Positions 2,393 to 20,578 of a stretch of DNA of 64,000 nt are shown piece by piece (within the stretch, counting starts at the first letter, position 1; every line of letters starts with the position of its first letter). Under the pieces are notes generated by a model, which was not told the origin of the DNA, did no database searches, and saw only the letters and a program-made list of their open reading frames with translations. This DNA comes from Bacilli bacterium (GTDB lineage Bacteria > Bacillota_I > Bacilli_A > RFN20 > CAG-449). Location of the stretch: contig DBGCPK010000005.1 in assembly GCA_048359995.1 (NCBI GenBank), positions 56,585 through 120,584 of the forward strand, read 5' to 3'. The translations under genes were made by a program, and so were the position numbers.

Positions 2393-2968
2393 ATGGAAGA
2401 GCCATATTGGTGGTATGTATTGCATGTGCGCTCTAACAAAGAGCATCGTGTTGTGGAAAGTTTTCAGCAAGCCTTTAACCAAAAAGGACTTGCATACGAA
2501 TTATACACTTTTTGTCTTGAGTCAGAACACTTCTATAAAGACAAGCAATCCCAAACATTAGGGCGAAAATATATTAAAAGGCCATTATTTCCTGGATATG
2601 TTTTTATAGAAACTAATATGCCATCTAAAGAGTTCATAATGACCTTTTTTTATGTGTTTTATGATTCTGCTGATATAATCCGTCTTTTGCGATACGGAGA
2701 TTCGGATGAAATTGCATTAAAAAAAGAAGAGCGGCAACGTTTTGAATTCCTTTTTAAAGGAAAAAGGGCGATTGAACACTCTATTGGTTATATTGAAGGT
2801 GATAAAATCATTATCACAGGCGGAGGACTAATGGGGCTTGAAGGGTATATCCGAAAAATCAATCGACATAACCGCACTGCAGATGTAGAGATAAATATGT
2901 TTAATCAAAGACAAACTATAAAAGTTGCACTTGAAATTGTGTCAAAATCAGGCAATCAAAAAAAATAG
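2393..2968 (+). CDS. NusG paralog (LoaP/UpxY-like specialized transcription antiterminator), NGN + KOW
   Basis: WYVLHVRSNKEHRV and PLFPGYVFIE NGN-domain motifs, and a C-terminal KOW-like GDKIIITGGGLMGLEGYI. GGAGGGG RBS. It is the first gene of the long co-directional cluster. Confidence 0.8.
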   Translation: MEEPYWWYVLHVRSNKEHRVVESFQQAFNQKGLAYELYTFCLESEHFYKDKQSQTLGRKYIKRPLFPGYVFIETNMPSKEFIMTFFYVFYDSADIIRLLRYGDSDEIALKKEERQRFEFLFKGKRAIEHSIGYIEGDKIIITGGGLMGLEGYIRKINRHNRTADVEINMFNQRQTIKVALEIVSKSGNQKK

Positions 2969-3037
2969 TCTTAACAGATTATTTTTTTGCTTTCTTTATG
3001 TAACGAGCGTTCCAAATAGGATTTAAGTACTAATGAT

Positions 3038-3571
3038 ATGAAAGAAGAAATAATAAACGCAAATGAAACTACCTTAAAAATTATTTTTGGTTGCTTAGTT
3101 CGTAACGGAGTAGAAAATACTACAATGCGATCGATATGTAATGCGACAGGCTTGACCGCAAGCAGTTTATATTACCGATTTAAGGACAAGGATGAAATTA
3201 TTTTAGAGGCATCCTGTTATGGGCTTAATTCCGTAACAAAAGAATTGTTTTGGGTTGTAACTGAAAAAATTAATAACTTCCAAGTTTTAATTGCTTTTTT
3301 GAAAAATGTTGATACTAGGAAACAATCTATAAAGCTTATTTATCAAGTTTTAAGTAGCCCTAAGTATGGTGAAAAATTTAGAAAAATGACGCATTCAACA
3401 CCGATGGTAATATATAAGTATACTGGGATGTTGTCAGAGAAACTCAATTGCTCGACAGAAGATTGTTGCTATATGTCGGACTTACAATTGCCGTTATTCG
3501 TGAATATGCAATATGGGAAAACAGGGAAAGCACGAAGCGAAAACTTAAATTTATTTACGACAATTGCTTAG
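3038..3571 (+). CDS. TetR/AcrR-family transcriptional regulator
   Basis: N-terminal HTH TTMRSICNATGLTASSLYYRFKDKDEI, typical of TetR; 177 aa. Confidence 0.7.
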   Translation: MKEEIINANETTLKIIFGCLVRNGVENTTMRSICNATGLTASSLYYRFKDKDEIILEASCYGLNSVTKELFWVVTEKINNFQVLIAFLKNVDTRKQSIKLIYQVLSSPKYGEKFRKMTHSTPMVIYKYTGMLSEKLNCSTEDCCYMSDLQLPLFVNMQYGKTGKARSENLNLFTTIA

Positions 3572-3620: not shown

Positions 3621-4661
3621 ATGCTTACTGATTATTATTATAATGAATTGTCCGTCCCTGAACAGGGTGCGTATAATAGTATTAGATTTGCTTTAAACAA
3701 TTCAGAGACTGAATGCACTGTAACTGGAATTAGTTCTAGTGAATCTGCTACACTTGTTTGGAAAGCCGTTGTTTTTGATCATCCGGAAATTATTAATTAT
3801 CCTGGACTGTTTTGTCAGCCGGTAGGTAATGGTGAGAATTTTAGGTTCAGATTTCAATATTCCCAGATTGATAGATATGCTTATGAAGAAAAACTAAATC
3901 GGCTAATAAACAAAATTAACAATAAAATGTCTGCTAATGCGTCAGATTATGTTGCTTGCAAAACAATATTTGATGAGTTAGCATCTTTTATTAAATATGA
4001 AGAAAATGTTTTAGAAGAGTATTTGAACCTTGAGCAAGAGAATTCTTCAGAGACAATAGATTTTATGCGAGACCATAGTACTTCATTTTCTCCATACGGA
4101 ATTCTAATGAATTCTAAAGGAGTGTGCCAAGGAATAGCCAAACTTTTTAAAATTATTTGTGACAGATTTGGCGTTCAATGTGCGTGTGTTGAAGCTAAGA
4201 CATTAAATTGCGGAGCTAATTCGGCAAGCAATCACATGTTAAATGTTGTAGAAATAGATGGGGAACGTGCTTTTGTCGATATAGCAAATAGTTTAAAGAT
4301 TGAAAATCTACCCGTTATTAAATATGATTTTTTCCTTATGCCTCAGCGTATTATCAATAAGACCTTTACAATTATTGGTGAGTTTGGATGCCGTAATGAG
4401 TCATTAAACTATTTTGTTAAAAATAATCTCCGTTTTACATCAATAAATGATTTAAGACGTTATCTTTTATCATATACCTATCGCTCAACGAATGGCGAAG
4501 TAAGGTGCCATTACGATGGAAACAAATTTGATGATAAAAAATTGGAAGACTTATTTTTTTACAATATAAACTACCATTGTCAAGATGGGTATTATATGCA
4601 ATTTGCAAGTGTTAAGAACGGATTCTGTACCGGTCTTATTAAATCAGATTCGGAGGTTTAA
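3621..4661 (+). CDS. Transglutaminase-like cysteine protease superfamily protein
   Basis: Cys-His-Asp arrangement: GVCQGIAKLFKIICDRFGV (Cys), NHMLNVVEI (His), AFVDIA (Asp). Confidence 0.55.
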   Translation: MLTDYYYNELSVPEQGAYNSIRFALNNSETECTVTGISSSESATLVWKAVVFDHPEIINYPGLFCQPVGNGENFRFRFQYSQIDRYAYEEKLNRLINKINNKMSANASDYVACKTIFDELASFIKYEENVLEEYLNLEQENSSETIDFMRDHSTSFSPYGILMNSKGVCQGIAKLFKIICDRFGVQCACVEAKTLNCGANSASNHMLNVVEIDGERAFVDIANSLKIENLPVIKYDFFLMPQRIINKTFTIIGEFGCRNESLNYFVKNNLRFTSINDLRRYLLSYTYRSTNGEVRCHYDGNKFDDKKLEDLFFYNINYHCQDGYYMQFASVKNGFCTGLIKSDSEV

Positions 4662-4664
4662 ATT

Positions 4665-6908
4665 ATGGAAGAAAGCAAAAAAATGAAATGGCAAAAGGAT
4701 TTTGATACTTTTTTCCCGATCTATAACTCATTTATCTTTGAAGGGTTCATTGATGATGATCAGCCATATGAAGACGAAAATGGAGAAATTAAATATTGTA
4801 GGCTTTATGACTATTTTGATAAAGTCTACAGCAATCATACCGATCCAACAAAACGTAAACGTGTAATCATCTATGATCCTACAGAATCAGATGATAAACG
4901 GTTTAAGATTTGCGATGATGATTGTATGCAAGAAGAAGTTGTCGATGAATCAGCAGACAATTTTGATGGAAAACTGAAAAAAGTCATGAATTATATGTCA
5001 TCGCAAATGTCGCAACATTTTTGGGATATAGTACATGATGATGATTTGGACATGCTTTTAATAGATCATAAATCATCTGGTCCTTCGTTAGATTTTTCTC
5101 GTATCCATTACGCTGTTACAGAGGGTAGTGGCCGTATTGCTCCATTCGAAATTCTTGATAAATTTAGAGATATTTTTAATAACCTGTTTGGTAATCCGCA
5201 AAATGGTGAACCAAGTGGGTATTTGTTTGTAATTAAAATGACATCACGTCTTTTATCGCGTGATGGTGCGTCCAACGGCTTGAGCGGTGAAGAGTTAATG
5301 ATATTTAGACAGTTGCTTAACATTGCCCAAAGTCTCGATACTGAAAGCGATAACGCCACGCAGCAACATCAAAGTAATAAGATCATCATTCTTGCAAACC
5401 AAGTGCGGGATTTGCCTATGTGGTTTACAGATGAAATTGCAAATCCGTTTATCAAGCTTATCAATGTATCAAGACCTTCTGAAGAAAATAAACTTGATTA
5501 TTTTAATGAAATGCTTGATAGCGGTTGCTTTAGTCCGCAATTTGTAGCTCGCTATAATGAGATTGATAGTGCTAGTAAAGAAAAAGATGCGCAGGCTAAG
5601 CGTAATCCAGTTGAAAAGAAATTTTTGGCGTATACAAACGATTTTAGTATGAAAATGCTAAGACGTTATAGGGCGTTTATTTCTAATAATCCTATAGATG
5701 ATCCGGCTAAATTGGGCTTTTCAATATCCACGTTCCGTGCCGGTGATATGACAAATCCTTGGGATGACGAAGACCGCATAAAGGATATGCTTAATATCAA
5801 ACAAACGGTAAGCAAAAAAATACAAGGTCAAGATTTTGCTTTAGATACTGCGCAAGCCATTTTAACAAGAGCCGCAATTGGACTTGACCGTGCTGAAAAT
5901 CCTAATGCTCCGCGGGTTATCTTATTTCTTGCCGGTCCGACAGGTACAGGTAAGACTGAACTATGTAAACAAATTGCGGAAAGTATTTTTGGCAGTGAAG
6001 ATAGAATTGTAAGATTTGATATGTCCGAGTATGGACAGGAAGAATCAGATCAAAAGCTTTTTGGTGCGCCTCCAGGATATGTTGGTTATGAAGAAGGCGG
6101 AAAGTTAACAAATGCTGTTAAGAAAGAGCCTTTTTCTCTTATCCTTTTCGATGAAATAGAAAAGGCTCATAATTCTATTCTCGATAAGTTTTTACAAATT
6201 CTTGGTGATGGCAGATTAACCGATGGCAAAGGAGAAACTGTTAGATTCACTGATTGCATTATAGTTATCACTTCAAATGCCGGGGTATTCTCGTTTGACG
6301 GAATGCCGCAGGAAGAAATCGACAAACTCATGAATGGCGATACAAAACCTGAAGGCGAAATGAATATGGACAGAGTTGCCCAGCTTGAGGAAGAATTGGC
6401 TGACGCTAATGGCAATATTTCCGAGCAATCATACTCAGAAATTTACGCAAAAGTAAAAGAACATTTAAGATACAATGTAAAGTCTTATTTCCATTGTAAA
6501 TTGAAGAGACCTGAGTTATACGGTCGTATTGAAGATTCTATAGTTTATTACAATTACATAGGAAAAGAATCAGTTGCAAAAATTGTTAAATCCAAAATTT
6601 CCGACGTAATTAAATCTACAAAAGAATCAATGAATGTTAACGATATTATATGCTCTGACGAAGTAAAAGCGGCAATTGCTCTCTATTGCCAAGATTGCAA
6701 AGTAAGAGCCTTAGGTGCGCGTGGTATTATCAAGAGTACCGGTAAATTATTCACTGGTAGCTTATCTAATTTCCTTTCTGATTATGTTCGTGGAGAGAAC
6801 GGAAAAAGTAAGGGCGATTTATCAGGAAAAACTTTAAAATGCACGTGCAACGAAATAATTTCATCGGCCTATGATATAGTTTGGAGTATCAATGATTGTA
6901 GTATTTGA
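4665..6908 (+). CDS. AAA+ ATPase with ClpA/ClpB D2-type domain (C-terminal) and unknown N-terminal region of about 400 aa
   Basis: LAGPTGTGKTELCK Walker A, a GAPPGYVGYEEGG sensor motif, Walker B LILFDEIEKAH, and LQILGDGRLTDGKGETVRFTDCIIVITSN. All are hallmarks of the Clp/Hsp100 D2 module. Confidence 0.8.
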   Translation: MEESKKMKWQKDFDTFFPIYNSFIFEGFIDDDQPYEDENGEIKYCRLYDYFDKVYSNHTDPTKRKRVIIYDPTESDDKRFKICDDDCMQEEVVDESADNFDGKLKKVMNYMSSQMSQHFWDIVHDDDLDMLLIDHKSSGPSLDFSRIHYAVTEGSGRIAPFEILDKFRDIFNNLFGNPQNGEPSGYLFVIKMTSRLLSRDGASNGLSGEELMIFRQLLNIAQSLDTESDNATQQHQSNKIIILANQVRDLPMWFTDEIANPFIKLINVSRPSEENKLDYFNEMLDSGCFSPQFVARYNEIDSASKEKDAQAKRNPVEKKFLAYTNDFSMKMLRRYRAFISNNPIDDPAKLGFSISTFRAGDMTNPWDDEDRIKDMLNIKQTVSKKIQGQDFALDTAQAILTRAAIGLDRAENPNAPRVILFLAGPTGTGKTELCKQIAESIFGSEDRIVRFDMSEYGQEESDQKLFGAPPGYVGYEEGGKLTNAVKKEPFSLILFDEIEKAHNSILDKFLQILGDGRLTDGKGETVRFTDCIIVITSNAGVFSFDGMPQEEIDKLMNGDTKPEGEMNMDRVAQLEEELADANGNISEQSYSEIYAKVKEHLRYNVKSYFHCKLKRPELYGRIEDSIVYYNYIGKESVAKIVKSKISDVIKSTKESMNVNDIICSDEVKAAIALYCQDCKVRALGARGIIKSTGKLFTGSLSNFLSDYVRGENGKSKGDLSGKTLKCTCNEIISSAYDIVWSINDCSI

Positions 6909-7425
6909 TGAACAATTAAAAGAAGCGCTTGAAAACGCCCAAAAGCTAAAACTGGCGGGAGAAGAAGAACTTTCAAAACAAATGTGTTTAAAATGCGTTG
7001 AGAAAGTTGCGTTATATAATGGCATTGATTTGATTTCGCTATTTTATGAGGACAAAGTATATGACGAAATAAAGGATGTGCCAGATGCTTTAAAGTACAT
7101 TTTTATAGCAAAATGCGCAATGAATGCGTATGACTTAATTTACTCAAAAAATCCGGCGAGCGATTCCGCATCTTCGTGGGCCAAGTGTGATAAAAACAAT
7201 AGCAATAGACCGCTTAGAGGTTTTTTTGAATGGTTACAAAGACGAAATCGATCAGTAGAAGAAAGGGATTGCAACCAATTCAAAATTCTGATCAATGCAA
7301 TGGTTGATTCTGACAATATTTATTTTAAAATGTCAGACCGAGTTGCTCAGTTGCCTTTAGTAGATATATTGAGCATGATAGTATCTGGTTCAATTACCAT
7401 TACTTCCGACGGAGAACTAAGATGA
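6892..7425 (+). CDS. Hypothetical protein (177 aa)
   Basis: ORF overlaps the upstream gene by 17 nt and the downstream gene by 4 nt (translational coupling); no recognisable motif. Confidence 0.55.
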   Translation: MIVVFDEQLKEALENAQKLKLAGEEELSKQMCLKCVEKVALYNGIDLISLFYEDKVYDEIKDVPDALKYIFIAKCAMNAYDLIYSKNPASDSASSWAKCDKNNSNRPLRGFFEWLQRRNRSVEERDCNQFKILINAMVDSDNIYFKMSDRVAQLPLVDILSMIVSGSITITSDGELR

Positions 7426-9191
7426 TTAGCGTAGTAAGATGTAGTAATAGAATGTGTATACAACTCCCAAAGGGTGTTACATGCAAGATTGGGGATATAA
7501 TTCCTTGCCCTAAAAGTTGTACATGCTTCAAAAAAGTTGAATCATTTTCCGTGGCGTCGGTATGGCAAATGGATGAAAAAAAATCCAGCAGTACGGCCAA
7601 ATATTCTGATGAGGAAATTAGAGCATATTGGGGGCAAGAGAATACGTCATCAGCTTCTTCTACCGATAGTGATATGCAAAGTTCAAATGTAGGCGTTAAC
7701 TCGTCCAATACTGCTTTGGGTGTAGAGCGACACGATAATAATCAAGTTGTAGCGAATGCCAATGAATTTGTAAGACAAAAGTCTTTCGGCAGATCACAGC
7801 GTTCTCAGTCCAATAGTGTTCCCGAAGCCGATGCAATATTGAGACCGCAAGAAAATTATGAAAAAATTGAGATTGGTGGTATGCAATTTACTGATAAAAT
7901 GACGATACTATCGTCGGAAATATCGCAGCCTCTCAGAAATGCTTTGTGGTTTATTTTCTCGCATTGGGAAACTCGTTCAGTTTTTAAAACAGAAACAGAA
8001 TTACGTGATGATTTTATTTGGTTGATAACATCGACTTCTAAACGCACTTTTAAGAAAAGTGAAATTGATGCAATATTATTAAATGAAGAATATGGACTTT
8101 CAGAAAAGTTCTTTTATTTGTTTTACGATATTATCTATCGCTACGAGCCGCCTAAAGGGTTTTACTGGTGCGATAAAGTTCTCTCACCTGATCCTTTAAG
8201 CTCATATTTTAGAGATAAAAAAGATTTTGTAGTTAAGTATTGTAATGCATACGCACAAGGCGAGCAATTTCGTTTGTTTTACATGGCACATAAAAAGGAA
8301 ATTTTACACTTTTTAGGCAGCGATAATGAAGAAAAATTGTTTGAAGACATGACATTATCTTTAGCTAAAGATGTCGGAGAAATTGTATTGATAGATAAAT
8401 ACAATAATTACATGCCGATAAATATGGGTAAGATTTCTTCGTTTATTATTAACATGCAGCAGCCAACTGAATTAAACAACATGAGAAACATGGTTAATTT
8501 TTTGGAAAAATATCGTGTAACACGACTTGGCGTTGTTCCTAGAGCTATTGAATACCCGTTCGAAAAATCTGTCAGGGATGATTTACAAGAAGATGTCAGT
8601 ATGTATGCAACTCTGCGATTAAACTCTTCTGCAAGCTACGCATCGGAATATGATTGCTTTGTGACACTCTTACATGAATATGTTAAGGTATTTAATCCCA
8701 GTGAAATTAAAATAGGTGAATTAACATTTACCCAAAGCAATTTTTCTCACGAATTAGAAGAAATTGTAAAAAACCTTTGCAAATCTTATTTTGGACAAGT
8801 CGCAGATGATGTGTTTGCAGACTATAAAAGTCGCGCATGGCTTGCGAAAAGCATATATGACAGGAACATTTTATCGACATATGTGTTAGAAAATAAATCC
8901 TACGTCGATAAGCTTATGAAACTAATTTCTAATCCAACATTAGAGCAATATATATCAATGTTCGATGATTGTGTTATTCAGTTGCATTATAGAGATTTAA
9001 CTATTCATGAATATATTGCAGAATTAGTGAAAGAAGATATTTATACGGTGTGTGGAGAATTTAGAGAAGACAATATTATTCATGAATTCTTCAATTACAA
9101 AATAAAAAATTGGTCTAAAACAAATTTGAGTGAACTGTTTAATAAATATCAGCGGCAATATGAAGCATTCATTAAAGGAGACATACTATGA
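7422..9191 (+). CDS. Hypothetical protein (589 aa) with Cys-rich N-terminus and Ser-rich linker
   Basis: ATGA overlap with the upstream gene. The N-terminus CSNRMC..CPKSCTC suggests a small metal-binding motif, followed by a low-complexity S/T-rich linker and a globular region. Confidence 0.6.
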   Translation: MISVVRCSNRMCIQLPKGVTCKIGDIIPCPKSCTCFKKVESFSVASVWQMDEKKSSSTAKYSDEEIRAYWGQENTSSASSTDSDMQSSNVGVNSSNTALGVERHDNNQVVANANEFVRQKSFGRSQRSQSNSVPEADAILRPQENYEKIEIGGMQFTDKMTILSSEISQPLRNALWFIFSHWETRSVFKTETELRDDFIWLITSTSKRTFKKSEIDAILLNEEYGLSEKFFYLFYDIIYRYEPPKGFYWCDKVLSPDPLSSYFRDKKDFVVKYCNAYAQGEQFRLFYMAHKKEILHFLGSDNEEKLFEDMTLSLAKDVGEIVLIDKYNNYMPINMGKISSFIINMQQPTELNNMRNMVNFLEKYRVTRLGVVPRAIEYPFEKSVRDDLQEDVSMYATLRLNSSASYASEYDCFVTLLHEYVKVFNPSEIKIGELTFTQSNFSHELEEIVKNLCKSYFGQVADDVFADYKSRAWLAKSIYDRNILSTYVLENKSYVDKLMKLISNPTLEQYISMFDDCVIQLHYRDLTIHEYIAELVKEDIYTVCGEFREDNIIHEFFNYKIKNWSKTNLSELFNKYQRQYEAFIKGDIL

Positions 9192-11092
9192 GCTCAATCG
9201 ATAAATATGTTGAAGGTGAAGCCAGATCATACAATCCTAGAGTTAATGTTGTAAAAAGGGGTGGTATGATAAATGGTTATATCGGTGGCAATTTAGTTTT
9301 TTCAATCGCAGACCGATATGGATATTTAAGCGATTCCGAACGCAGTACGATTAGAAACTCAATTCACGAGTATGAGGCAGAAGAGCAAGAGCGTATAAGA
9401 AGAGAACAAATACGCATTGAAAATGAACGCGTCGCTGTGCGAAATGCGCTTAGAAGCTCTGTAGTAGCTACAAAAAATAAAATTAGAGAATCATACAGTA
9501 ACGCTCAACGGGTAAGTCAAGAAGTAGCATCTTCATTGAGCGTTAAGTCAGTTTTGGATTCATTTAAAAAATATAATATTTCTTCATACATAGAACGTGC
9601 ACAAATTTTGGATCGCAAATTAAAAAGTTGTGTAGAGAGATTAGATGGTGAATACAGAAAAAAAATGCAAGAAGTCGAGTCGCTTGAAAGAACAATACGT
9701 GAAGATTCGACGAGACAGACATATATTCAACAGCAGGATTCCTTAAAGAAAATACACGTAAATTTTACTAATGTTGAATTTCCTGTTTCGGAAATTGAGC
9801 AATTAAAGTTTGAAATTGAAAAACTCAGAGAAGCTATTTTGAAAATCGAAAACATCGAAAAAGAACTTAGCAACGTGGCCAATGATGGGCTCATAGGCTC
9901 AATTGCTGCATCAGCTCTTAAAGAGATTAGACAGTTCAATATTAGTTCATTGGATGATGTAAATAAACTCCTTATTAGTGTTCAGGAACATCTTGGTGAA
10001 ATTCGCAATTTGAAATTTCACCAACAAAGCAAGGAGAGAAGCGATCAAATTGCTTTGTTAAACGGTATATTAAAATCGTGCTCGCAATTGCACGAATATT
10101 TGATTAGCCAGCCCTATGAAGCTACAAATAATCGTAGCGAAATAGTTGAGACAGCTAATCGGGTCTTAGGTATTTATTCAGAACTTGATACAGCTACTTA
10201 TTCTACATGCAGCAAAGAAAAAATTAAAGATGCATATGAATTGGTTCAAGAGGTGTTGGTTGGCTCGGCATCTAATGCTCAAACTCTTGAGTATTTAAAA
10301 CGGTTGCTTGAAGAAGGATTTGTATTTAAGCGCGACGACCAGCTTCAAGCAGATAATTATGCGGACTATATAAAAAAATACAACGAAATGATTGAACGCG
10401 GCGTGTCGATCGAAGAAATTGAAGTTTTTGATCCAATTAATTATTCAGAGCAAAAAAAGCGTCTCAATGAAAAACTGCTTGGATTAGATGTTCAAGAGGG
10501 AATAAATAGAACGCGCACGTCCTTTATGATGGCTTGGAAAGTTATGGAGGATATGGGATATCGTCTTCTGTATCAAAATATGGGAAGCGAAGGCGCAGAC
10601 GCATTAGCTTGCGAAGGTTTATTTGTTAAACCCGGTTATGAGGGGGTTGTATGGCAAGTTGTTGCTTCAGATTGCAATATAACTCGAAAGATAATAGGCG
10701 TTGAAAGGACAAGCGGTTTATCTACTTCAATCCAAAGAGTTAGAGAAGTCGCAGAAATAACAGAGCGCGACGGTGAAGTACAGGAATTCTTTGAGCGATA
10801 TGCAGAAGAAGGCGGTGGTGAACTTCTAGTCACAACTGATGTATATACTGGTTCTCCGGAATGCGAGCAAGCTATTCAAAGCAATGGATGTTTCAAGCTG
10901 TCAGAAGAAGGCGAAAAATGTTTAGATAAATTAGTGGAAACCGATGATGAGAATGCTAAAAAGAAAGGGCGCTCTCGTCTTAGAGCAGGAGAAGGAACAC
11001 CAGTCCAAACTCACGGAGTATCTCATAGTGTGCGTGAACAAGAGTCGCTGAGCGCTAATTCTAGAATAGTTGCCCAAAGAGCTAAGAAGTAA
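9188..11092 (+). CDS. Hypothetical protein (634 aa), coiled-coil rich
   Basis: ATGA overlap. Long heptad-like E/K/R/L-rich stretches and no catalytic motif. Confidence 0.6.
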   Translation: MSSIDKYVEGEARSYNPRVNVVKRGGMINGYIGGNLVFSIADRYGYLSDSERSTIRNSIHEYEAEEQERIRREQIRIENERVAVRNALRSSVVATKNKIRESYSNAQRVSQEVASSLSVKSVLDSFKKYNISSYIERAQILDRKLKSCVERLDGEYRKKMQEVESLERTIREDSTRQTYIQQQDSLKKIHVNFTNVEFPVSEIEQLKFEIEKLREAILKIENIEKELSNVANDGLIGSIAASALKEIRQFNISSLDDVNKLLISVQEHLGEIRNLKFHQQSKERSDQIALLNGILKSCSQLHEYLISQPYEATNNRSEIVETANRVLGIYSELDTATYSTCSKEKIKDAYELVQEVLVGSASNAQTLEYLKRLLEEGFVFKRDDQLQADNYADYIKKYNEMIERGVSIEEIEVFDPINYSEQKKRLNEKLLGLDVQEGINRTRTSFMMAWKVMEDMGYRLLYQNMGSEGADALACEGLFVKPGYEGVVWQVVASDCNITRKIIGVERTSGLSTSIQRVREVAEITERDGEVQEFFERYAEEGGGELLVTTDVYTGSPECEQAIQSNGCFKLSEEGEKCLDKLVETDDENAKKKGRSRLRAGEGTPVQTHGVSHSVREQESLSANSRIVAQRAKK

Positions 11093-11685
11093 TGCAGATA
11101 GAAAGGGCTATGCTAGGGATAAGAACTTTAGGTCCCGGCAATAGATTTGTTATTTGGGTTAATGGTTGCTACCGTAAATGTGCTGGTTGCGTTTCAAAAC
11201 GCTTACAAGCTTTTAACCCTTTTAATGAGCAAGACGTTATTAAATATATATCGCAATTTAGCTTGAGTGAGATTGCCGGGGTAACTATATCTGGGGGAGA
11301 GCCTTTTGAACAGTATACAGATTTATGCAAAGCCGTTAAATACTTTAATCAACAAGGCATTGAGGACATCTTAATTTATACTGGTTATACTTTTGATGAG
11401 CTGAAAGATAAAAAAAACGCAGAGATTAATTACATTTTAGAACACATCGCTGTTTTAATTGATGGTCCGTATGTTCAAAAACTAGATAGTGGATATGGGA
11501 ATCTAAAGGGTAGCGATAATCAAAGAGTAATCATTTTAAACCCCAAAGTAAAACGGCTATATGTTGAGTATTATAGTCCGACTCGAACAATGCAAGAGTT
11601 TTATATCGGCAATATAGTTTTGGCAGCAGGTATTCCCGATGAAGATTATATTAAGAAATTTAGAAATGCAAAAGGAGATCAATGA
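11092..11685 (+). CDS. Radical SAM protein, NrdG-like (anaerobic RNR activase family) small activase
   Basis: DGPGNRFVIWVNGCYRKCAGCVS contains CxxxCxxC and closely parallels the NrdG motif GPG..SGCxHxCPGC. Also a GGEPF SAM-binding motif; 197 aa. Confidence 0.7.
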   Translation: MQIERAMLGIRTLGPGNRFVIWVNGCYRKCAGCVSKRLQAFNPFNEQDVIKYISQFSLSEIAGVTISGGEPFEQYTDLCKAVKYFNQQGIEDILIYTGYTFDELKDKKNAEINYILEHIAVLIDGPYVQKLDSGYGNLKGSDNQRVIILNPKVKRLYVEYYSPTRTMQEFYIGNIVLAAGIPDEDYIKKFRNAKGDQ

Positions 11686-13691
11686 TGGCAGACTCAACTT
11701 TATGTACCGCTGAATATTATTTTGAGTACAAAATTGAAAGAGTTTCTGGAGATGAAAAAGCGATAAAGACTCCTAAAATTTATTTTGAGAGAGATTACCG
11801 CACCTCAAATCTTCCATATACGATGTTTGCAGTTCCTGAAGAATGGTTAAATCAACAGGATCTTGTGAATAGTCTTAAGGGCGAAACAGATGCCGAGACA
11901 GTCAAAAAGATACTCTCAAAATTACCATATGACACGATAAACGTTGTGTTTGATATTAAAGGCATAGCCTGCGCACCTTTAGGCGATGTTAAAAGTATTG
12001 AATACGAAAAAGCAGAGATTCACTTGCCTGATCAAACATTTGAAAAGTTTTATCAAGCAGGTTGTCGTCTTACAATTGAAAACAATAATTCCGAAGATCA
12101 TTCAGGAATAGGTGTCATTGAGATGATTAAAAATAAAGTTACAGTAGCAAAATTTTTCTTTGCCGTCAACTTTACGTTCCGAAAAGATATATCTTATGAA
12201 TTAGAAGTTTCGGGTAAATCTGTAAACATTGAATTTAAATGTAAAGACCGTCCTACTGGTATAGAGGTCGTCATTGTATATAACAAGGATAGGCTTCCTT
12301 GTTTATGCAACGATATGGGCGTTAATATGGTAACGTCGCCGTTTACTTTGGATTTCTCCAAAGGTGAGACATTTCGCAAGACAATACCACTAACAGGTGA
12401 AGCTGCAGCGCAAGGGAATATTTTCTCTATTGCAATAAGAAATCGGCAAATGGCCAAGTATTACATTCTAAATTGCGAAAAGAATACATCTCTTCCGAAT
12501 CAAAGCGATAAAAAAATCAAATCGACTGTTAGCTATACATGTCCATTTTGTCATAAGAAGATAAATTATAGTATTTCAAAAAGCGCCAGATACAAAAAAG
12601 GTGGTACATCGTGTAGCTCAATTGAGGATGCAAAAAGCGGTAAGAAGATACCCACAATTTATAACAAACACAAGGCCAAAGTTAAAAAATGTCTGTTCTG
12701 TTCTGAAGATTTAATGGTAAAAGATAACTCTAGTTTTCAAGATTTAAGAAGACGATTGCTCCCGCTCTCATTCATGGAGCACGACAATTATAAAATTGCT
12801 TTTGCCGGTTCAACAAGAGCTGGTAAGACAACTTATATTTCCAGGTTCTTTGGTATCTCAGGTGACACAAGAATTAGTATGCCAATGACAATGGCTACAA
12901 ATAGCCTAAAACGTTTTGGAATCTATATTAAGTCTGCACCGATACTAGAAGTTAAAAGGGGTACTGAAGGTTATCAATTAACGGACACTAATTGGCCAGA
13001 TATTCAGAAAGAATACATAGAACGTTCAATAGACCTAAATGCAAAAAAATATCCTGAAAGAACTACGACTGGTGATTATACATCATATCCTTTTATTGCT
13101 GAAGTAAACGATAACGCTTATATTTCCTTTTATGATATTGCCGGTGAAGATGCACAGCATTCTATGCTTATTAAGAACATTGCAAATGGTGAACTTATAG
13201 GAATCTTTTGTTTAATTAACGGAAAAACAGATATCGGTGGCAATAGTGATGTTATTAATATGTTAAAGGGTGCAGCACAGAAAGATAAAGACAAGCGCGA
13301 TGATGTTGTAGTTGATAAAAGGTGCCCAATAGCAGTGGTAGTTACAAAAATGGATATGTTAGAGCCTGAATTTGATCCGAATTGTCAATGTTTAAGAAGT
13401 GACTATTTTGATGGCGGCACAATATATGAAGGCAGTGAAATTGAAAGAGTCATAAATATTTCAAGTGAAGAAATTAAGTCGTATTTAAAACAGCATGCAT
13501 TATTGCCGGAATTTGAAGGTTTATATGAGAACGTAAAATACTTCGGGGTTTCATCATTCAATTTTATGGACAGCATACATAATAAGTTGGAGGATATAAA
13601 TACGCCAGGAAAAGTTAAATTTGAATGTTCATCAAAACGAATGGAGCTTCCTTTCCTGTGGATGCTTAAACAATTTGGTGTAATTAGATAA
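11682..13691 (+). CDS. P-loop GTPase (TRAFAC class) with N-terminal domain containing a Cys4 zinc ribbon
   Basis: G1 AGSTRAGKTT, G3 DIAGED and G4 TKMD in the correct order and spacing. An upstream CPFCHKK...CLFCSED Zn-ribbon. Confidence 0.7.
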   Translation: MMADSTLCTAEYYFEYKIERVSGDEKAIKTPKIYFERDYRTSNLPYTMFAVPEEWLNQQDLVNSLKGETDAETVKKILSKLPYDTINVVFDIKGIACAPLGDVKSIEYEKAEIHLPDQTFEKFYQAGCRLTIENNNSEDHSGIGVIEMIKNKVTVAKFFFAVNFTFRKDISYELEVSGKSVNIEFKCKDRPTGIEVVIVYNKDRLPCLCNDMGVNMVTSPFTLDFSKGETFRKTIPLTGEAAAQGNIFSIAIRNRQMAKYYILNCEKNTSLPNQSDKKIKSTVSYTCPFCHKKINYSISKSARYKKGGTSCSSIEDAKSGKKIPTIYNKHKAKVKKCLFCSEDLMVKDNSSFQDLRRRLLPLSFMEHDNYKIAFAGSTRAGKTTYISRFFGISGDTRISMPMTMATNSLKRFGIYIKSAPILEVKRGTEGYQLTDTNWPDIQKEYIERSIDLNAKKYPERTTTGDYTSYPFIAEVNDNAYISFYDIAGEDAQHSMLIKNIANGELIGIFCLINGKTDIGGNSDVINMLKGAAQKDKDKRDDVVVDKRCPIAVVVTKMDMLEPEFDPNCQCLRSDYFDGGTIYEGSEIERVINISSEEIKSYLKQHALLPEFEGLYENVKYFGVSSFNFMDSIHNKLEDINTPGKVKFECSSKRMELPFLWMLKQFGVIR

Positions 13692-13703
13692 CGGGGGTAT
13701 TTT

Positions 13704-16184: not shown

Positions 16185-16201
16185 GAGGAGGGAATAGAGA
16201 A

Positions 16202-17155
16202 GTGGCTAGTAATAAAAAGAAAGATAAAGCAATAGGCGCCTTTTCAATTATCGCCATCATTCTATGTGTTTGCGCACTTTGCCTTGGCTTCATAAAAAGT
16301 CAGTCTGAAGATTTGTACTTCAATCTTGAAAAGGCAAAACAGGTTGAAATATCTAGTATCGAAGATATCATTGCATTAGGTGAAGCAATCTACAACGATG
16401 AGTGTGTTCTAACCAAAGATATTCATATTACTGAAAATGGTTTTAGAATCGGAACAACTAAAAGACCGTTTGCGGGAACATTTGACGGTAGAGGACATAC
16501 TATATATTTGGATTACAATTTCGCTAATCAAAATACATCATTATTTAGCTGTATTGAAGCTTCTGGAGTGATTAAGAACACTCGATTTGTATTTGGCAAT
16601 ATAGCGGTTGAGGGTAATACATTTGGTGGCATTGCGAAGATCAATTACGGAACAGTTCAAGATTGCAAGATTGAATGTGCAGATATCAAAATCGATAATA
16701 ACATAGGTATCTATTCACCTTGTGTGATAACCAACAATGGTACGATAGCAAATATAGTAGTGGATTGCTCTTTTTCTAATTCACAAATATATGACAATGA
16801 AGCATCGATATTATTTGGCGGCATATGTACATATAATTATGGAACTGTAAAAAATTGCATTGTTGCCCCGACATTCAATAACATTGTTTGCTCGGATGAA
16901 TTTAAGATTCTTGTGGGAGAAACAACTAATGTTGGAGTAAGTGCAATTTGTGCAGTAAACACGAGTGAGGCATCAACTACTAACTCGGTGGCAATTCTAC
17001 AAACCGGTGTATATACTTCAGACAAGAATAGTGGATTAAAAATCGCTAGCGATTATAGTAGTATTACCAATGAGGACACGATTTTCTTTGATTTGGATTT
17101 CAATAATCGTGTTTGGGAAATTCAAAACAATAAACTAGTTCTTATAGAGGGTTAA
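16202..17155 (+). CDS. Membrane-anchored surface protein with parallel beta-helix-like repeats
   Basis: GTG start preceded by GAGGAGGG. N-terminal signal-anchor helix. GTFDGRGHTIYLDY-type repeat motif, followed by N/G/T-rich beta-strand repeats. Confidence 0.55.
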   Translation: MASNKKKDKAIGAFSIIAIILCVCALCLGFIKSQSEDLYFNLEKAKQVEISSIEDIIALGEAIYNDECVLTKDIHITENGFRIGTTKRPFAGTFDGRGHTIYLDYNFANQNTSLFSCIEASGVIKNTRFVFGNIAVEGNTFGGIAKINYGTVQDCKIECADIKIDNNIGIYSPCVITNNGTIANIVVDCSFSNSQIYDNEASILFGGICTYNYGTVKNCIVAPTFNNIVCSDEFKILVGETTNVGVSAICAVNTSEASTTNSVAILQTGVYTSDKNSGLKIASDYSSITNEDTIFFDLDFNNRVWEIQNNKLVLIEG

Positions 17156-17159
17156 GAAT

Positions 17160-20100: not shown

Positions 20101-20543
20101 ATGTTCTCATTAACGCTAACAACGTGCAAGAATATGTAGGACATGAGTTCTTATATACAAGCTTTATTGACGGCAATTTTGTCGCTAATACAGTCAAATT
20201 AGAATCTTACATTGTTTCGAGCAAATTAGTTGAACGTTACGATATTGTAACGGAAAGCACATTAAATCATATTGCCAATGGATTACTTGCATGCTCGGAT
20301 ACATTGGTAGGAATTTGCAATATGTTCAAGTTTGATGATGACTTTACTTATGACATTGTGCAGTTGCAAATCGATATAGAAACATACGGATTATATACGT
20401 ATGATGAATGGAGGAAATATATATCATATGAGGATTTTGTTTCTTTCAATGGTGCATATTTTAAAATTGCCGTAGGAAAGGGATTAATAAGCGTAGATGA
20501 AATATTATCGCTTCTTGATGATTTGTCTGAAAATCGCGCATAG
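17160..20543 (+). CDS. Large surface protein: N-terminal TM anchor, Big_2-like Ig domains, LRR-like segment, multiple Listeria-Bacteroides (Flg_new) repeats, C-terminal Hint domain plus about 80-aa extension
   Basis: Repeated Y.I.YD.NGG...P.R.GYTF.GW units. Hint hallmarks CFTKGTMLMLGDGT, VGHGLF and YDIVTESTLNHIANGLLA. Confidence 0.75.
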   Translation: MNDKITAKNGIIKILSIIVVAILAIAVTVIGILLLNKDSNTENASYSIIVDDEITIYEGDTFTLVPYLVNKDGTVVESRFDYSASDKAISVNVDGVISVNSIPENDVHVSIYERNTSTTAEVNVNIVGRLTKVLGITFSDLAGNKMLVSGTQNLKLGETYIIDVVTEPRNVEIENYCLLQALNSSGTEKNVFEFAYTKTNVSMTAVGLGSGTLLLDITNDDNQSIYDTDFDFSVSMSDENLSEEILNSTNTTLLSKEELNKIEKVELSQNVSNLDGLQNLTSLKTVVFTADEVMNIENISQNYCYRIKTNLFENYLDANNWADYLKCIIPYEESADELFIVYHNAKTATGEENVVYERLENIANFPTYIFEGYTNFGWLDGTETEVSLSQVKASVKSNGIHLYAGWNPISYKVVYHIRDSEVANKEEIFYYDTEYLLKVPNEIDSSITHTGYKFAGWTRNRNSNTFSPNVQFRNGDAISNLTSEADAIIDLYDIWEPIEYTVIFSSVEGMEEIADLTAKYNTAYTLPTPSRPGYAFNYWKLNNGDILNAGIQDPNLDSELNLSSIEGAEIILTPDFTEITYTITFRLNGGQALQDLSFVDGYRKTLYYEEEYTLPYLTKEGYTRYYWLCAENGKQYKLDENNKGPKLLQEFTTACEVTFSAVWTSAEYSINYDCNGGNIAGDSYVTDTRFWDDGGSLLTPQRIGYTFVKWQDIDHEDISYVPEDAGWTSNLIKSAQEDGAEFNFKAVWQINYYDLTISTGAGTSLSVKVNDQTKLDGTYSVAYNSTITVSYSANTGYSNAECTFPGGNMPANNLTIKSSATINKHNVTIIIGSGSYMTVNIGGTSYSNNQTVKNVAYGTSISVSNYGATNGYHDGWASCDYSTMPDYDITVSSGATPDSCFTKGTMLMLGDGTSVAVENLRINDIILAFDHSTGQYVESRILYTYYGYDYVPSIELYFSNKAVLEFLNVGHGLFDATMNEYVLINANNVQEYVGHEFLYTSFIDGNFVANTVKLESYIVSSKLVERYDIVTESTLNHIANGLLACSDTLVGICNMFKFDDDFTYDIVQLQIDIETYGLYTYDEWRKYISYEDFVSFNGAYFKIAVGKGLISVDEILSLLDDLSENRA

Positions 20544-20578
20544 ATTTCTATTATCATTAAAGTGAATCGGAGGTTGAT

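What the first reader, a model, noticed from the sequence alone, without database searches (positions are those of the whole stretch)
4665..6908. Standalone ClpB-D2-type AAA+ module fused to an unknown 400-aa N-terminal region
The C-terminal 350 aa are an unmistakable Hsp100 D2 domain: Walker A and B, a sensor, and the GAPPGYVGYEEGG motif. There is no D1, no Clp_N and no ClpP-binding IGF loop. The N-terminal part has no recognisable motif. This resembles the effector or remodeller ATPases found in defence islands rather than a chaperone.
Basis: partly seen in the sequence, partly recalled or inferred. Interest (0 to 1): 0.55.

Follow-up and report, generated by a model that had tools for sequence, protein, structure and literature searches.

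The report
Half-dead ClpB-like unfoldase in conflict operon
The gene encodes a two-tier AAA+ machine with a dead upper ATPase module and an intact ClpB-type lower motor. It always sits in a conserved, mobile multi-gene operon with a radical-SAM enzyme, a coiled-coil protein and a GTPase switch, so it is probably the remodelling engine of an uncharacterised bacterial conflict system and not a housekeeping chaperone.

Summary
The ORF at 4665..6908 (+, 747 aa) is real. Its C-terminal half is an intact Hsp100 D2 module: Walker A and B, GYVG pore loop, sensor 1, Arg finger and GAR sensor 2 are invariant across 37 homologues. It has no Clp_N domain, no M-domain and no ClpP-docking loop.

The protein founds an uncurated family of more than 110 full-length members in gut Clostridia MAGs. 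It lies in a fixed operon: transglutaminase-like peptidase, AAA+, small protein, Zn-ribbon protein, coiled-coil protein, NrdG-like radical-SAM enzyme, Zn-ribbon DO-GTPase-like protein, GAP1-like membrane protein, then surface repeat proteins. The radical-SAM and GTPase genes were present in 21 of 21 loci long enough to show them.

A wider sister family (about 650 aa) keeps the AAA+, radical-SAM and coiled-coil trio but uses a kinase, PP2C and FHA instead of the GTPase pair. One variant of the same GTPase chassis carries a TIR-Sel1 protein in place of the trio.

Best reading: an effector-module unfoldase of a new variant of GTPase-centric conflict systems. The function itself is untested.

The parts
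4665..6908 (+). Target gene: 747-aa two-tier AAA+ protein (pseudo-D1 plus active ClpB-type D2)
   Evidence: ORF. More than 110 full-length homologues, 33-96% identical. AF2 model pLDDT 83.8.
4665..5762 (+). Pseudo-D1: degenerate AAA+ module (aa 1-366) with no Walker A or B. Conserved KWQxD, G27/D31, YDP, YLFVIKMTSR, K239..ILAN, DLPxW, NP, PSEEN and NPW motifs.
5778..6284 (+). D2 large subdomain, including Walker A (5934-5957), GYVG pore loop (6063-6101), Walker B (6141-6167) and sensor 1 (6267-6284)
   Evidence: Pfam AAA_2 2.4e-42. PDB ClpE/ClpC/ClpB D2. Motif coordinates. Invariant columns.
6285..6503 (+). Variable, acidic insertion (64-110 aa across the family) at the site where ClpA/C/E/X carry the ClpP-docking loop. 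It has no IGF-type tripeptide.
   Evidence: Regex over 37 sequences. Variable alignment columns about 740-880. ClpE has only about 26 residues at this site (alignment).
6504..6905 (+). D2 small subdomain with Arg-finger box (6504-6536) and GAR sensor 2 (6714-6725), plus a C-terminal beta-hairpin tail with conserved W740
   Evidence: (second stretch aligned to ClpE 624-732).
3621..4661 (+). Transglutaminase-fold cysteine-peptidase-like protein. Its stop codon is 4 nt before the AAA+ start.
   Evidence: Pfam EDR1_CTR1_ARMC3_pept 5.7e-6 and NCBIfam transglutaminase-related 8.5e-13. Present upstream in 19 of 22 loci.
6892..7425 (+). 177-aa protein of unknown fold. Its start overlaps the AAA+ stop by 17 nt, which suggests translational coupling.
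   Evidence: Orthologues in most loci. Retained in the TIR variant L153 at 37% identity.
7422..9191 (+). 589-aa protein with an N-terminal Cys-rich (Zn-ribbon-like) segment. Part of the chassis.
   Evidence: Invariant C7, C29, P30 and C33. Syntenic. Retained in the TIR variant at 33% identity. No PDB or Pfam hit.
9188..11092 (+). 634-aa coiled-coil protein with a conserved C-terminal 'MxxMGY...GV' domain. Co-conserved with the AAA+ and the radical-SAM enzyme.
   Evidence: hhalign against the about 550-aa coiled-coil protein of the kinase-type cassettes: probability 95.8%, E 6.5e-9. Coiled-coil-only PDB hits. Absent from the TIR variant.
11092..11685 (+). NrdG-like radical-SAM enzyme (197 aa, CxxxCxxC at C26/C30/C33, GGEP motif)
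   Evidence: Pfam Fer4_12 8.3e-31. NCBIfam NrdG 1e-27, 97 bits against a cut-off of 126. Present in 21 of 21 target-type loci and in 10 of 14 well-flanked wider-family loci, often 2-31 nt from the AAA+ gene.
11682..13691 (+). Zn-ribbon plus TRAFAC GTPase (G1 GSTRAGKT, G3 DIAGE, G4 TKMD), DO-GTPase-like
   Evidence: Alignment invariants C287/P288/C290/C311, G376/G381/K382, D485/G488/E489, K556/D558. Orthologues hit Pfam DO-GTPase2 in 4 of 6 cases, best 1.4e-5. 21 of 21 loci.
13704..16184 (+). 826-aa GAP1-like protein with 3-4 C-terminal transmembrane segments
   Evidence: Positional equivalents and orthologues hit Pfam GAP1-M in 4 of 6 cases. L006 scores 32 bits against a cut-off of 24. L001 and L008 hit weakly at the same position. 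TM segments at aa 715-823. The window protein itself gives no Pfam hit.
16202..20543 (+). Two membrane-anchored surface proteins: a 317-aa protein, and a 1127-aa protein with Listeria-Bacteroides repeats and a Hint-like C-terminus. They are conserved downstream partners.
   Evidence: (39% and 29% identity in L153).
2393..3571 (+). NusG paralogue and TetR-family regulator that head the operon
   Evidence: Pfam NusG 6.3e-12 and TetR_N 8.2e-9. The same head is seen in L151/L152 and L023, and TetR in L006.

Best explanation
The gene encodes a cytoplasmic, probably hexameric, two-tier AAA+ unfoldase.

The upper tier (aa 1-366) is a degenerate AAA+ module that can no longer bind or hydrolyse ATP. 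It most likely serves as a structural and partner-docking ring (inferred). The lower tier is a fully equipped Hsp100/ClpB-type D2 motor. Its GYVG pore loop should thread a polypeptide (inferred from motif conservation). It has no Clp_N, M-domain or ClpP loop, so it is neither an Hsp70-coupled disaggregase nor a ClpP partner.

It works inside a conserved operon. Its constant companions are an NrdG-like radical-SAM enzyme and a long coiled-coil protein (shown by co-occurrence and remote homology). This trio, together with a transglutaminase-like peptidase, behaves as an exchangeable effector module. The module is mounted on a membrane-associated sensor/switch chassis: a Zn-ribbon DO-GTPase-like protein, a GAP1-like membrane protein and surface repeat proteins. 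The same trio occurs with a kinase/PP2C/FHA switch in a sister family. On the same GTPase chassis it can be replaced by a TIR-Sel1 protein.

Most likely mechanism (inferred): when the switch fires, the AAA+ uses ATP to unfold or disassemble an operon-encoded protein. The coiled-coil protein is the best candidate substrate. This would either release or activate it, or expose it to the radical-SAM enzyme and the peptidase. The system as a whole is most likely a conflict (anti-phage or anti-invader) system of gut Clostridia.
For: Protein anatomy:
- D2 identity and intact catalytic and pore motifs.
- Loss of Walker A in 101 of 101 sequences.
- No ClpP loop and no transmembrane segments.

Operon conservation:
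- The operon is conserved down to 33% AAA+ identity, with radical-SAM and GTPase genes in 21 of 21 loci and the transglutaminase-like gene in 19 of 22.
- Start and stop codons overlap or abut those of the neighbouring genes.

Wider family:
- The same pseudo-D1/D2 architecture occurs in 266 clusters.
- These sit in kinase / coiled-coil / FHA / radical-SAM / AAA+ / PP2C cassettes.
- The coiled-coil proteins of the two system types are homologous (hhalign 95.8%).

Conflict-system context:
- DO-GTPase2 and GAP1-M hits on orthologues, and the conserved glutamate after G3 that defines DO-GTPases (PMC7159879, read).
- TIR-Sel1 replaces the transglutaminase-like peptidase, AAA+, coiled-coil protein and radical-SAM enzyme on the same chassis.
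- Low-GC island with a resolvase.
- A decayed or recombined allele in related strains.
Against: - No experiment exists, and no PADLOC model fits any other operon protein.
- The window's own GTPase and GAP1-like proteins do not reach Pfam thresholds. The link rests on orthologues and positional equivalents, and the best hits are modest (25-32 bits).
- The substrate is unknown. The pseudo-D1 role and hexamer formation are assumed from other AAA+ proteins.
- Surface repeat and Hint proteins and a VirD4-like ATPase nearby would also fit a secretion or contact-dependent role.
- 4 of 14 well-flanked wider-family loci showed no radical-SAM gene with my HMM.
- The TIR call is borderline (27.7 bits against a cut-off of 28).
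Confidence: 0.6

Rival explanations
1. It is the ATPase of a secretion or surface-assembly apparatus. It would unfold or recycle components, as ClpV does, for export of the downstream membrane-anchored repeat and Hint-domain proteins, together with the VirD4-like coupling ATPase.
For: The downstream genes encode membrane-anchored surface proteins with Listeria-Bacteroides repeats and a Hint-like end. These are conserved partners. A TrwB/VirD4-like ATPase lies in the island and also next to the operon in L028, and weakly in L021. The kinase/PP2C/FHA/ClpB-like combination of the sister family recalls the T6SS threonine-phosphorylation pathway (own knowledge).
Against: The surface proteins and the GTPase chassis persist in the variant that lacks the AAA+ and carries a TIR-like protein instead, so they do not depend on the AAA+. 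The surface proteins have ordinary N-terminal anchor or signal segments. No channel or needle components were recognised. The VirD4-like gene was seen in only 3 loci. The NCBIfam ClpV score is far below its cut-off.
Confidence: 0.15
2. It belongs to a biosynthetic (RiPP-like or polymer) cluster. The radical-SAM enzyme would modify a peptide or protein, the transglutaminase-like peptidase would process it, and the AAA+ would act as a maturation chaperone. The NusG paralogue and TetR would be typical regulators of a long biosynthetic operon.
For: A NusG paralogue and TetR sit at the operon head. A radical-SAM enzyme and a cysteine-peptidase-like protein are in the operon. In L151/L152 the same head drives glycosyltransferase, Asn-synthase and radical-SAM genes.
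Against: The radical-SAM enzyme is the minimal NrdG/activase type with no SPASM or RiPP-recognition domain. No precursor-peptide gene or transporter was recognised. The GTPase/GAP1-like, kinase/PP2C/FHA and TIR-swap contexts are features of signalling or conflict systems, not of biosynthesis.
Confidence: 0.1
3. It is a divergent housekeeping Hsp100 chaperone or protease partner (ClpB/ClpC/ClpE-like), and its neighbours are coincidental.
For: High similarity of the D2 to ClpE, ClpC and ClpB.
Against: No Clp_N, no active D1, no M-domain and no ClpP loop. Scores are 5-6 fold below the equivalog cut-offs. It lies in a low-GC mobile island. Synteny is strict across 21 loci. It is truncated or lost in related strains.
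Confidence: 0.03
4. It is a member of a known defence ATPase family, either Dodola DolB or the PADLOC candidate PDC-M37B.
For: PADLOC hits to PDC-M37B (2e-26) and DolB (2e-21). Dodola is a validated two-gene anti-phage system with a ClpB-domain protein (PMC11514479).
Against: The hits cover only the shared D2 core: aa 371-540 against profile positions 126-277 of 375 and 307-424 of 518. The same partial hits appear for all relatives. No neighbour matches DolA or any PDC-M37 partner. The architecture and operon are different.
Confidence: 0.03

Closest known systems
ClpB/Hsp104, ClpA/C/E and ClpV (class I Hsp100 AAA+ unfoldases)
   Same: Two stacked AAA+ tiers. The D2 has identical Walker A and B, GYVG pore loop, sensor 1, Arg finger and GAR sensor 2. 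Best sequence and structure matches are.
   Different: The upper tier has lost nucleotide binding. There is no Clp_N, no M-domain and no ClpP-docking tripeptide. A 64-110 aa variable insertion sits at the ClpP-loop site. NCBIfam scores are far below the family cut-offs. The gene lies in a mobile island and not among heat-shock or T6SS genes.
Human CLPB/Skd3 (a single D2-type NBD behind a non-catalytic N-terminal region)
   Different: The Skd3 N-terminal region is ankyrin repeats. Here it is a degenerate AAA+ module. The biological context is also different.
DO-GTPase/GAP1 'GTPase-centric' conflict systems (Kaur, Burroughs, Iyer & Aravind 2020, eLife, PMC7159879), especially the GAP1-N2 type with its HSP70/GrpE/DnaJ theme
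   Same: A Zn-ribbon TRAFAC GTPase with a glutamate after G3 is followed by a large protein with a GAP1-M-like region and C-terminal TM helices, plus a rapidly evolving extracellular repeat protein and an ATP-dependent chaperone theme.
   Different: The described themes are tubulin, HSP70/GrpE/DnaJ and kinase/PP2C. No ClpB-D2, radical-SAM or transglutaminase theme is mentioned. The repeats here are Listeria-Bacteroides repeats, not FNIII. The Pfam matches are weak, and absent for the window's own proteins.
Dodola DolB and PADLOC candidate PDC-M37B (ClpB-domain proteins of defence systems)
   Same: A ClpB-D2-type ATPase used outside proteostasis in an accessory or defence locus.
   Different: Only the D2 core matches. 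Length, N-terminal domain and partner genes all differ.
PpkA/PppA/Fha1/ClpV1 threonine-phosphorylation control of the P. aeruginosa H1-T6SS (own knowledge; not checked in a paper here)
   Same: The sister family combines a ClpB-like AAA+ with a Ser/Thr kinase, a PP2C phosphatase and an FHA protein.
   Different: There are no T6SS structural genes, the hosts appear to be gut/rumen Firmicutes (inferred from the metagenome sources; not verified), the trio includes a radical-SAM enzyme and a coiled-coil protein, and the AAA+ has a dead D1.

Membership tests
ClpB/Hsp104 disaggregase | Clp_N N-terminal domain | tested here: not met
   No Clp_N hit in Pfam at E<=0.01. The N-terminal model is an AAA+ fold.
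ClpB/Hsp104 disaggregase | Catalytically active D1 (Walker A GxxxxGK[ST], Walker B) | tested here: not met
   No Walker A in the N-terminal region of 37 of 37 family members and 64 of 64 wider-family members. By sequence position relative to the predicted strand, K-M occupies the Walker B acidic site (YLFVIKM); this placement is an inference.
ClpB/Hsp104 disaggregase | Coiled-coil M-domain inserted in D1 for Hsp70 coupling | tested here: inconclusive
   NCBIfam ClpB aligns only profile positions 554-726 of 853, so no sequence match to the M-domain. The pseudo-D1 has a low-confidence helical insertion at aa 114-176 that I could not compare directly.
ClpB/Hsp104 disaggregase | Score at or above the curated equivalog cut-off | tested here: not met
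   TIGR03346: 210 bits against 1232. NF008118: 176 against 1417.
ClpB/Hsp104 disaggregase | D2 with Walker A/B, GYVG pore loop, sensor 1, Arg finger and sensor 2 | tested here: met
ClpA/ClpC/ClpE/ClpX (ClpP-activating unfoldases) | IGF/LGF-type ClpP-docking tripeptide after sensor 1 | tested here: not met
   No [ILVM]G[FLMI] in the insertion in 36 of 37 sequences, and the single match is not conserved.
ClpV/TssH (T6SS) | Equivalog score and linkage to T6SS genes | tested here: not met
   TIGR03345: 189.6 bits against 884.95. No neighbour in the window operon matched a T6SS Pfam family; the gene tables of other loci list none.
Dodola DolB | Full-length match to the DolB profile and an adjacent DolA | tested here: not met
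   The match covers profile positions 126-277 of 375 only. No DolA hit on any neighbour.
PADLOC PDC-M37B | Full-length profile match and the partner gene of the candidate system | tested here: not met
   Matches positions 307-424 of 518 and 177-295 of 390 only. No PDC-M37 partner hit on neighbours.
DO-GTPase/GAP1 conflict system (PMC7159879) | TRAFAC GTPase of the DO-GTPase family with a conserved glutamate in the Walker B/G3 motif, often with N-terminal Zn ribbons | tested here: inconclusive
   G1, G3 (D485xxG488E489) and G4 are invariant and Cys pairs are conserved. DO-GTPase2 hits in 4 of 6 orthologues, best 25.3 bits against a cut-off of 27. The window protein itself does not hit.
DO-GTPase/GAP1 conflict system (PMC7159879) | GAP1 protein (N, M and C domains) encoded directly downstream of the GTPase | tested here: inconclusive
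   GAP1-M scores 32 bits (cut-off 24) in the L006 positional equivalent, with weak same-position hits in L001 and L008. No GAP1-N or GAP1-C hit. No hit for the window protein. The profile search found only close orthologues.
DO-GTPase/GAP1 conflict system (GAP1-N2 type) | FNIII-repeat protein as the variable sensor component | tested here: not met
   The downstream repeat protein carries Listeria-Bacteroides (Flg_new) repeats, not FNIII.
DO-GTPase/GAP1 conflict system (GAP1-N2 type) | Membrane association (C-terminal TM helices on GAP1) | tested here: met
   Hydrophobic segments at aa 715-749, 762-780 and 790-823.
Anaerobic RNR activase NrdG (for the partner radical-SAM enzyme) | Equivalog score and an NrdD substrate gene | tested here: not met
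   TIGR02491: 97 bits against 126.1. No operon protein (3621..26047) matched an NrdD or glycyl-radical-enzyme family in Pfam or NCBIfam; the rest of the window (30-64 kb) was not scanned.

The most novel reading that the evidence does not exclude
The pseudo-D1/D2 AAA+, the minimal NrdG-type radical-SAM activase and the coiled-coil protein may form a previously unrecognised radical-based protein effector module. In this reading the AAA+ unfolds or presents the coiled-coil protein, or another protein substrate, so that the activase can install a protein radical or other radical-SAM modification. One candidate site is the conserved Gly of the C-terminal 'R-x-x-x-G-V' strand. The module could be plugged into different switches (DO-GTPase/GAP1 or kinase/PP2C/FHA) and would be functionally exchangeable with a TIR effector.
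Probability: 0.15. Interest if true: 0.85.

Novelty: new variant of a known kind. Interest (0 to 1): 0.62.

Why it matters
If this reading is right, three things follow.

1. It defines an uncurated AAA+ family: about 266 clusters at 50% identity, with a dead D1 stacked on a live ClpB-type D2. That would be a natural experiment on what an inactive ring contributes to an Hsp100 motor.

2. It reveals a conserved three-gene module (AAA+, NrdG-like radical-SAM enzyme, coiled-coil protein). I found it in human-gut, rumen and other metagenome contigs and in gut Clostridia MAGs. It is wired to two different signalling switches and is exchangeable with a TIR protein. That is the pattern expected of an immune effector module.

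3. It would add a fourth 'theme' to the GTPase-centric conflict systems predicted in 2020, none of which I found tested experimentally in the papers searched. It would also give a concrete operon to express and test.

A radical-SAM activase with no known glycyl-radical partner, tied to an unfoldase, would interest enzymologists too.

Tried and rejected
- **Sequence searches on the N-terminal region.** Pfam, NCBIfam, PADLOC, PHROGs and a PDB profile search found nothing. Only fold comparison identified it.
- **Plasmid and phage collections.** tblastn of the N-terminal domain found no match. BFVD gave only weak generic AAA+ hits.
- **Other components between system types.** jackhmmer and hhalign were used to link the small protein, the 589-aa protein and the GAP1-like protein to positional equivalents in distant loci (L006, L007, L028) and to kinase-type cassettes. 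No significant signal appeared except for the coiled-coil protein.
- **PDB profile searches for the 589-aa and 634-aa proteins.** Nothing significant, only coiled-coil noise.
- **The radical-SAM enzyme against PDB by phmmer.** No hit.
- **GAP1-like N-terminal profile against 5.8 billion proteins.** Only 17 close orthologues, none annotated.
- **The search for related loci with the wider-family alignment.** I replaced it with a degenerate DNA motif search.
- **The afdb50 fold library.** Unavailable.
- **Rfam and tRNA scans of the window.** Empty.
- **Promoter and terminator scan.** Uninformative.
- **Literature.** No paper links a ClpB-like ATPase, an NrdG-like radical-SAM enzyme and defence. 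The eLife supplement holds no Clp or radical-SAM entries.
- **Readings rejected.** A bona fide ClpB, ClpC, ClpE or ClpV; membership of DolB or PDC-M37B.
Full report
**1. The observation**

The window holds an ORF at 4665..6908 on the + strand, 747 aa, starting with ATG. A GGAGG Shine-Dalgarno sits about 10 nt upstream. The upstream gene stops 4 nt before this start, and the downstream gene starts 17 nt before this stop.

The C-terminal half is an Hsp100 D2 module:
- Pfam AAA_2 matches aa 420-623 with E 2.4e-42.
- NCBIfam ClpB, ClpV and ClpA models match only their D2 parts, at 183-210 bits against cut-offs of 885-1232.
- A family profile hits the D2 of ClpE, ClpC and ClpB in the PDB at E 1e-75 to 1e-69.

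The D2 motifs are Walker A (aa 424-431), the GAPPGYVGYEEGG pore-loop motif (467-479), Walker B (493-501), sensor 1 (TSN, within 535-540), the RPELYGR Arg-finger box (614-624) and the GAR sensor 2 (684-687). All are invariant or nearly so in 37 homologues spanning 34-81% identity.

There is no Clp_N hit. At the place where ClpA, ClpC, ClpE and ClpX carry the ClpP-docking tripeptide, 36 of 37 sequences have no [ILVM]G[FLMI]. Instead, a variable, acidic insertion of 64-110 aa occupies that site.

**2. The N-terminal 370 residues**

At sequence level nothing matches. This holds for Pfam, NCBIfam, PADLOC, PHROGs and a PDB profile search.

The region is nevertheless well conserved. Recurring motifs are KWQxD, G27/D31, YDP, H135/H148, YLFVIKMTSR, K239..ILAN, DLPxW, NP, PSEEN and NPW.

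None of the 37 family members or 64 wider-family members has a Walker A in this region. By sequence position relative to the predicted strands, the P-loop site reads FEGFIDDDQP and the Walker B site reads VIKM. This placement is inferred and was not read from a structural superposition.

The region is therefore a degenerate AAA+ module, a pseudo-D1. The protein is a two-tier AAA+ with a dead upper tier and a live ClpB-type lower tier.

**3. The family**

More than 110 full-length (about 710-790 aa) homologues exist, from 96% down to 33% identity. The named ones come from MAGs labelled Clostridia, Clostridiales, Ruminococcaceae or Candidatus Coproplasma.

A genome scan found 18 loci, all MAGs. 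They include Coproplasma, Scatosoma, Ornithoclostridium, Christensenella/Christensenellaceae and one Anaeroplasmataceae.

An HMM of the N-terminal domain was run against 1.84 billion representatives. It found 266 clusters at E<=1e-3. Beyond the target family there is a wider sister family of about 600-700 aa with the same architecture: pseudo-D1, AAA_2 and ClpB_D2-small.

PADLOC's DolB and PDC-M37B profiles match only the shared D2 core in all of these proteins. No plasmid or phage record encodes the N-terminal domain.

**4. Genomic context of the target type**

The gene lies in a low-GC island (29-38% GC against 42-48% in the flanks) from about 1.1 to 27.3 kb. The island begins with a serine resolvase on the minus strand, followed by a NusG paralogue and a TetR regulator.

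The gene order is:

| Position | Product |
|---|---|
| 3621-4661 | Transglutaminase-like cysteine-peptidase-like protein |
| 4665-6908 | The AAA+ protein |
| 6892-7425 | 177-aa protein |
| 7422-9191 | 589-aa protein with a Cys-rich N-terminus |
| 9188-11092 | 634-aa coiled-coil protein |
| 11092-11685 | NrdG-like radical-SAM enzyme (Fer4_12 8.3e-31; CxxxCxxC) |
| 11682-13691 | Zn-ribbon GTPase |
| 13704-16184 | 826-aa protein with 3-4 C-terminal TM segments |
| 16202-20543 | Two membrane-anchored surface proteins |

This order is kept in every locus long enough to show it. The radical-SAM and GTPase genes are present in 21 of 21 distinct loci, and the transglutaminase-like gene in 19 of 22. 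This holds even where the AAA+ is only 33-36% identical.

**5. Link to a described class of systems**

Orthologues of the GTPase hit Pfam DO-GTPase2 in 4 of 6 cases, best E 1.4e-5. Orthologues and positional equivalents of the 826-aa protein hit GAP1-M in 4 of 6 cases. One of these is above the gathering cut-off at 32 bits against 24, and two others are weak but fall at the same position.

The GTPase alignment shows an invariant DxxGE. That is the conserved glutamate by which Kaur et al. define DO-GTPases (PMC7159879).

That paper describes GAP1-N2-type systems as membrane-proximal. They have Zn-ribbon GTPases, TM-bearing GAP1 proteins and a fast-evolving extracellular repeat protein. Their accessory "themes" are tubulin, HSP70/GrpE/DnaJ, or kinase/PP2C. 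No ClpB-D2, radical-SAM or transglutaminase theme is mentioned in the text or in the held supplement.

The window's own GTPase and 826-aa proteins do not reach Pfam significance, and the repeats here are Listeria-Bacteroides repeats, not FNIII. Membership is therefore plausible but not established. I treat this operon as a new variant on that plan.

**6. The conserved core is a trio**

Contexts of the wider family came from L029, L030 and 120 metagenome loci. The latter were retrieved with the motif D[LI]PxWFYx[ND]NP, and all 120 contain a family member.

These loci show a different cassette: Ser/Thr kinase, a coiled-coil protein of about 550 aa, an FHA protein, an NrdG-like radical-SAM enzyme, the AAA+ and a PP2C phosphatase. 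The radical-SAM gene often ends 2-31 nt from the AAA+ gene. No DO-GTPase or GAP1-like protein was detected.

Among the 14 loci with at least 3 kb on both sides of the AAA+ gene, the counts were:

| Component | Loci (of 14) |
|---|---|
| Radical-SAM enzyme | 10 |
| FHA protein | 11 |
| Ser/Thr kinase | 9 |
| PP2C phosphatase | 7 |
| Coiled-coil protein | 11 |

The coiled-coil proteins of the two cassette types are homologous in their C-terminal domain (hhalign probability 95.8%, E 6.5e-9). So the AAA+, the radical-SAM enzyme and the coiled-coil protein travel together, while the signalling partners are swapped.

**7. The trio behaves as an exchangeable module**

A 30%-identical homologue of the 826-aa protein lies in loci L153 and L154. 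These loci keep the 177-aa protein (37% identity), the 589-aa protein (33%), the GTPase (44%), the GAP1-like protein (29%) and both surface proteins (39% and 29%). They lack the transglutaminase-like protein, the AAA+, the coiled-coil protein and the radical-SAM enzyme.

At the head of that operon sits a protein with Sel1 repeats (3.3e-21) and a borderline TIR domain. The TIR evidence is TIR_2 at 27.7 bits against a cut-off of 28, and PADLOC ThsB at 7e-5. TIR domains are typical immune effectors (own knowledge).

This swap is the strongest argument that the AAA+-containing set acts as an effector module, or an effector-activating module, on a sensor/switch chassis. It is also the strongest argument that the whole system is a conflict system.

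The locus is also unstable. In related strains the AAA+ gene is cut at about residue 600 and fused in frame to an unrelated SPASM radical-SAM gene that lacks its cluster motif. The rest of the operon is replaced by glycosyltransferase genes (P0286, seen on 29 contigs).

**8. How it most likely works**

Shown:
- An intact threading motor (D2) behind a nucleotide-dead AAA+ tier.
- No transmembrane segments and no ClpP or Hsp70 coupling elements.
- Obligate linkage to the radical-SAM and coiled-coil genes.
- Tight spacing with the neighbouring genes, which suggests translational coupling.

Inferred:
- The protein forms a hexamer.
- The pseudo-D1 ring provides assembly and partner docking, as inactive tiers do in other AAA+ machines.
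- The variable insertion at the former ClpP-loop site, on the exit face, is a candidate docking element for a downstream enzyme.
- On a signal from the GTPase/GAP1-like switch (or from kinase/PP2C/FHA in the sister family), the motor unfolds or disassembles an operon-encoded protein, most plausibly the coiled-coil protein. This would release or activate it, or hand it to the radical-SAM enzyme and the transglutaminase-like peptidase.

I put about 0.6 on this overall picture. Within it, I put about 0.9 on the two-tier anatomy, about 0.65 on the conflict-system role and about 0.4 on the coiled-coil protein being the substrate.

**9. Rivals**

- **Secretion or surface-assembly ATPase.** The surface and Hint proteins, and a VirD4-like ATPase at 23196-24506 and next to the operon in L028, fit this reading. 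It is weakened because the surface genes persist without the AAA+ in the TIR variant.
- **Biosynthetic cluster.** The NusG/TetR head and the radical-SAM plus peptidase pair fit this. It is weakened by the minimal activase-type radical-SAM enzyme and the signalling and TIR contexts.
- **Housekeeping Clp chaperone, or a DolB / PDC-M37B member.** Both failed their membership tests.

**10. Novelty and limits**

I found no curated model and no paper covering this family or the trio. My literature access is partial, and no experiment exists.

I rate it a new variant of a known kind: an Hsp100-type unfoldase with a dead D1, recruited into a GTPase-centric conflict-type system.

The most novel reading still open is a radical-based protein effector module. 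In it the NrdG-type activase would act on a protein presented by the AAA+.

The afdb50 library was unavailable.

Noticed in passing
L151:8001-10643 and L152:2472-5114 (relatives of window 4665-6908): In related strains the AAA+ gene is truncated at about aa 600 and fused in frame to a SPASM radical-SAM gene that lacks its CxxxCxxC (P0286, 880 aa, on 29 contigs). The same resolvase/NusG/TetR/transglutaminase-like head is kept, but the rest of the operon is replaced by glycosyltransferase, Asn-synthase and other radical-SAM genes. The locus looks like a recombination hot spot.
   Followed up: partly
L153:4369-15418 and L154:2493-13542: A variant of the same GTPase/GAP1-like chassis carries a Sel1-repeat protein with a borderline TIR domain in place of the transglutaminase-like peptidase, AAA+, coiled-coil protein and radical-SAM enzyme. 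On the opposite strand downstream are AAA ATPases and a trypsin-like protease, which may be another conflict system.
   Followed up: partly
L029, L030 and L031-L150 (metagenome loci): The sister family of pseudo-D1/D2 ATPases sits in kinase / coiled-coil / FHA / NrdG-like radical-SAM / AAA+ / PP2C cassettes. This combination recalls the PpkA/PppA/Fha1/ClpV1 control pathway of the T6SS, although the hosts appear (from the metagenome sources; not verified) to be gut/rumen Firmicutes with no T6SS.
   Followed up: partly
window 17160-20543 (+): A 1127-aa membrane-anchored protein has Listeria-Bacteroides repeats and a C-terminal Hint-like domain (Hom_end_hint, E 0.0025) followed by a tail of about 100 aa. 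This layout resembles a polymorphic toxin. DUF2225 and two acidic unknown proteins follow at 20579-22862.
   Followed up: no
window 23196-26047 (+): A short (436 aa) TrwB/VirD4-like ATPase with no membrane anchor (TrwB_AAD_bind 8e-41; PADLOC mad8 1e-14) is followed by a 514-aa protein with two C-terminal TM segments. A VirD4-like gene also lies next to the operon in L028, and weakly in L021.
   Followed up: partly
window 1087-2968: The island boundary shows a terminator-like hairpin after the dusB-like gene (1087-1107), a serine resolvase on the minus strand (1395-2054), and then a NusG paralogue (2393-2968) and a TetR regulator at the head of the long + strand operon. GC content drops from 42% to about 33% here.
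   Followed up: partly
window 29505-31442 (+): The lysyl-tRNA synthetase-like ORF is 645 aa, about 130 aa longer than a typical bacterial LysRS. By eye its C-terminal extension looks like a Trbp111/CsaA-type tRNA-binding domain. This was not tested with any tool.
   Followed up: no
window 26707-27180 (-): A DUF3990-like ORF (Pfam 2.8e-5; PADLOC PDC-M10A 1.6e-4) sits at the AT-rich distal end of the island, where GC is 29% at 26-28 kb.
   Followed up: no
window 5108-5359 (-) and 6167-6415 (-): Two antisense ORFs of 82-83 aa with GTG or TTG starts lie inside the AAA+ gene. They are most likely chance ORFs in AT-rich DNA. They were not examined further.
   Followed up: no
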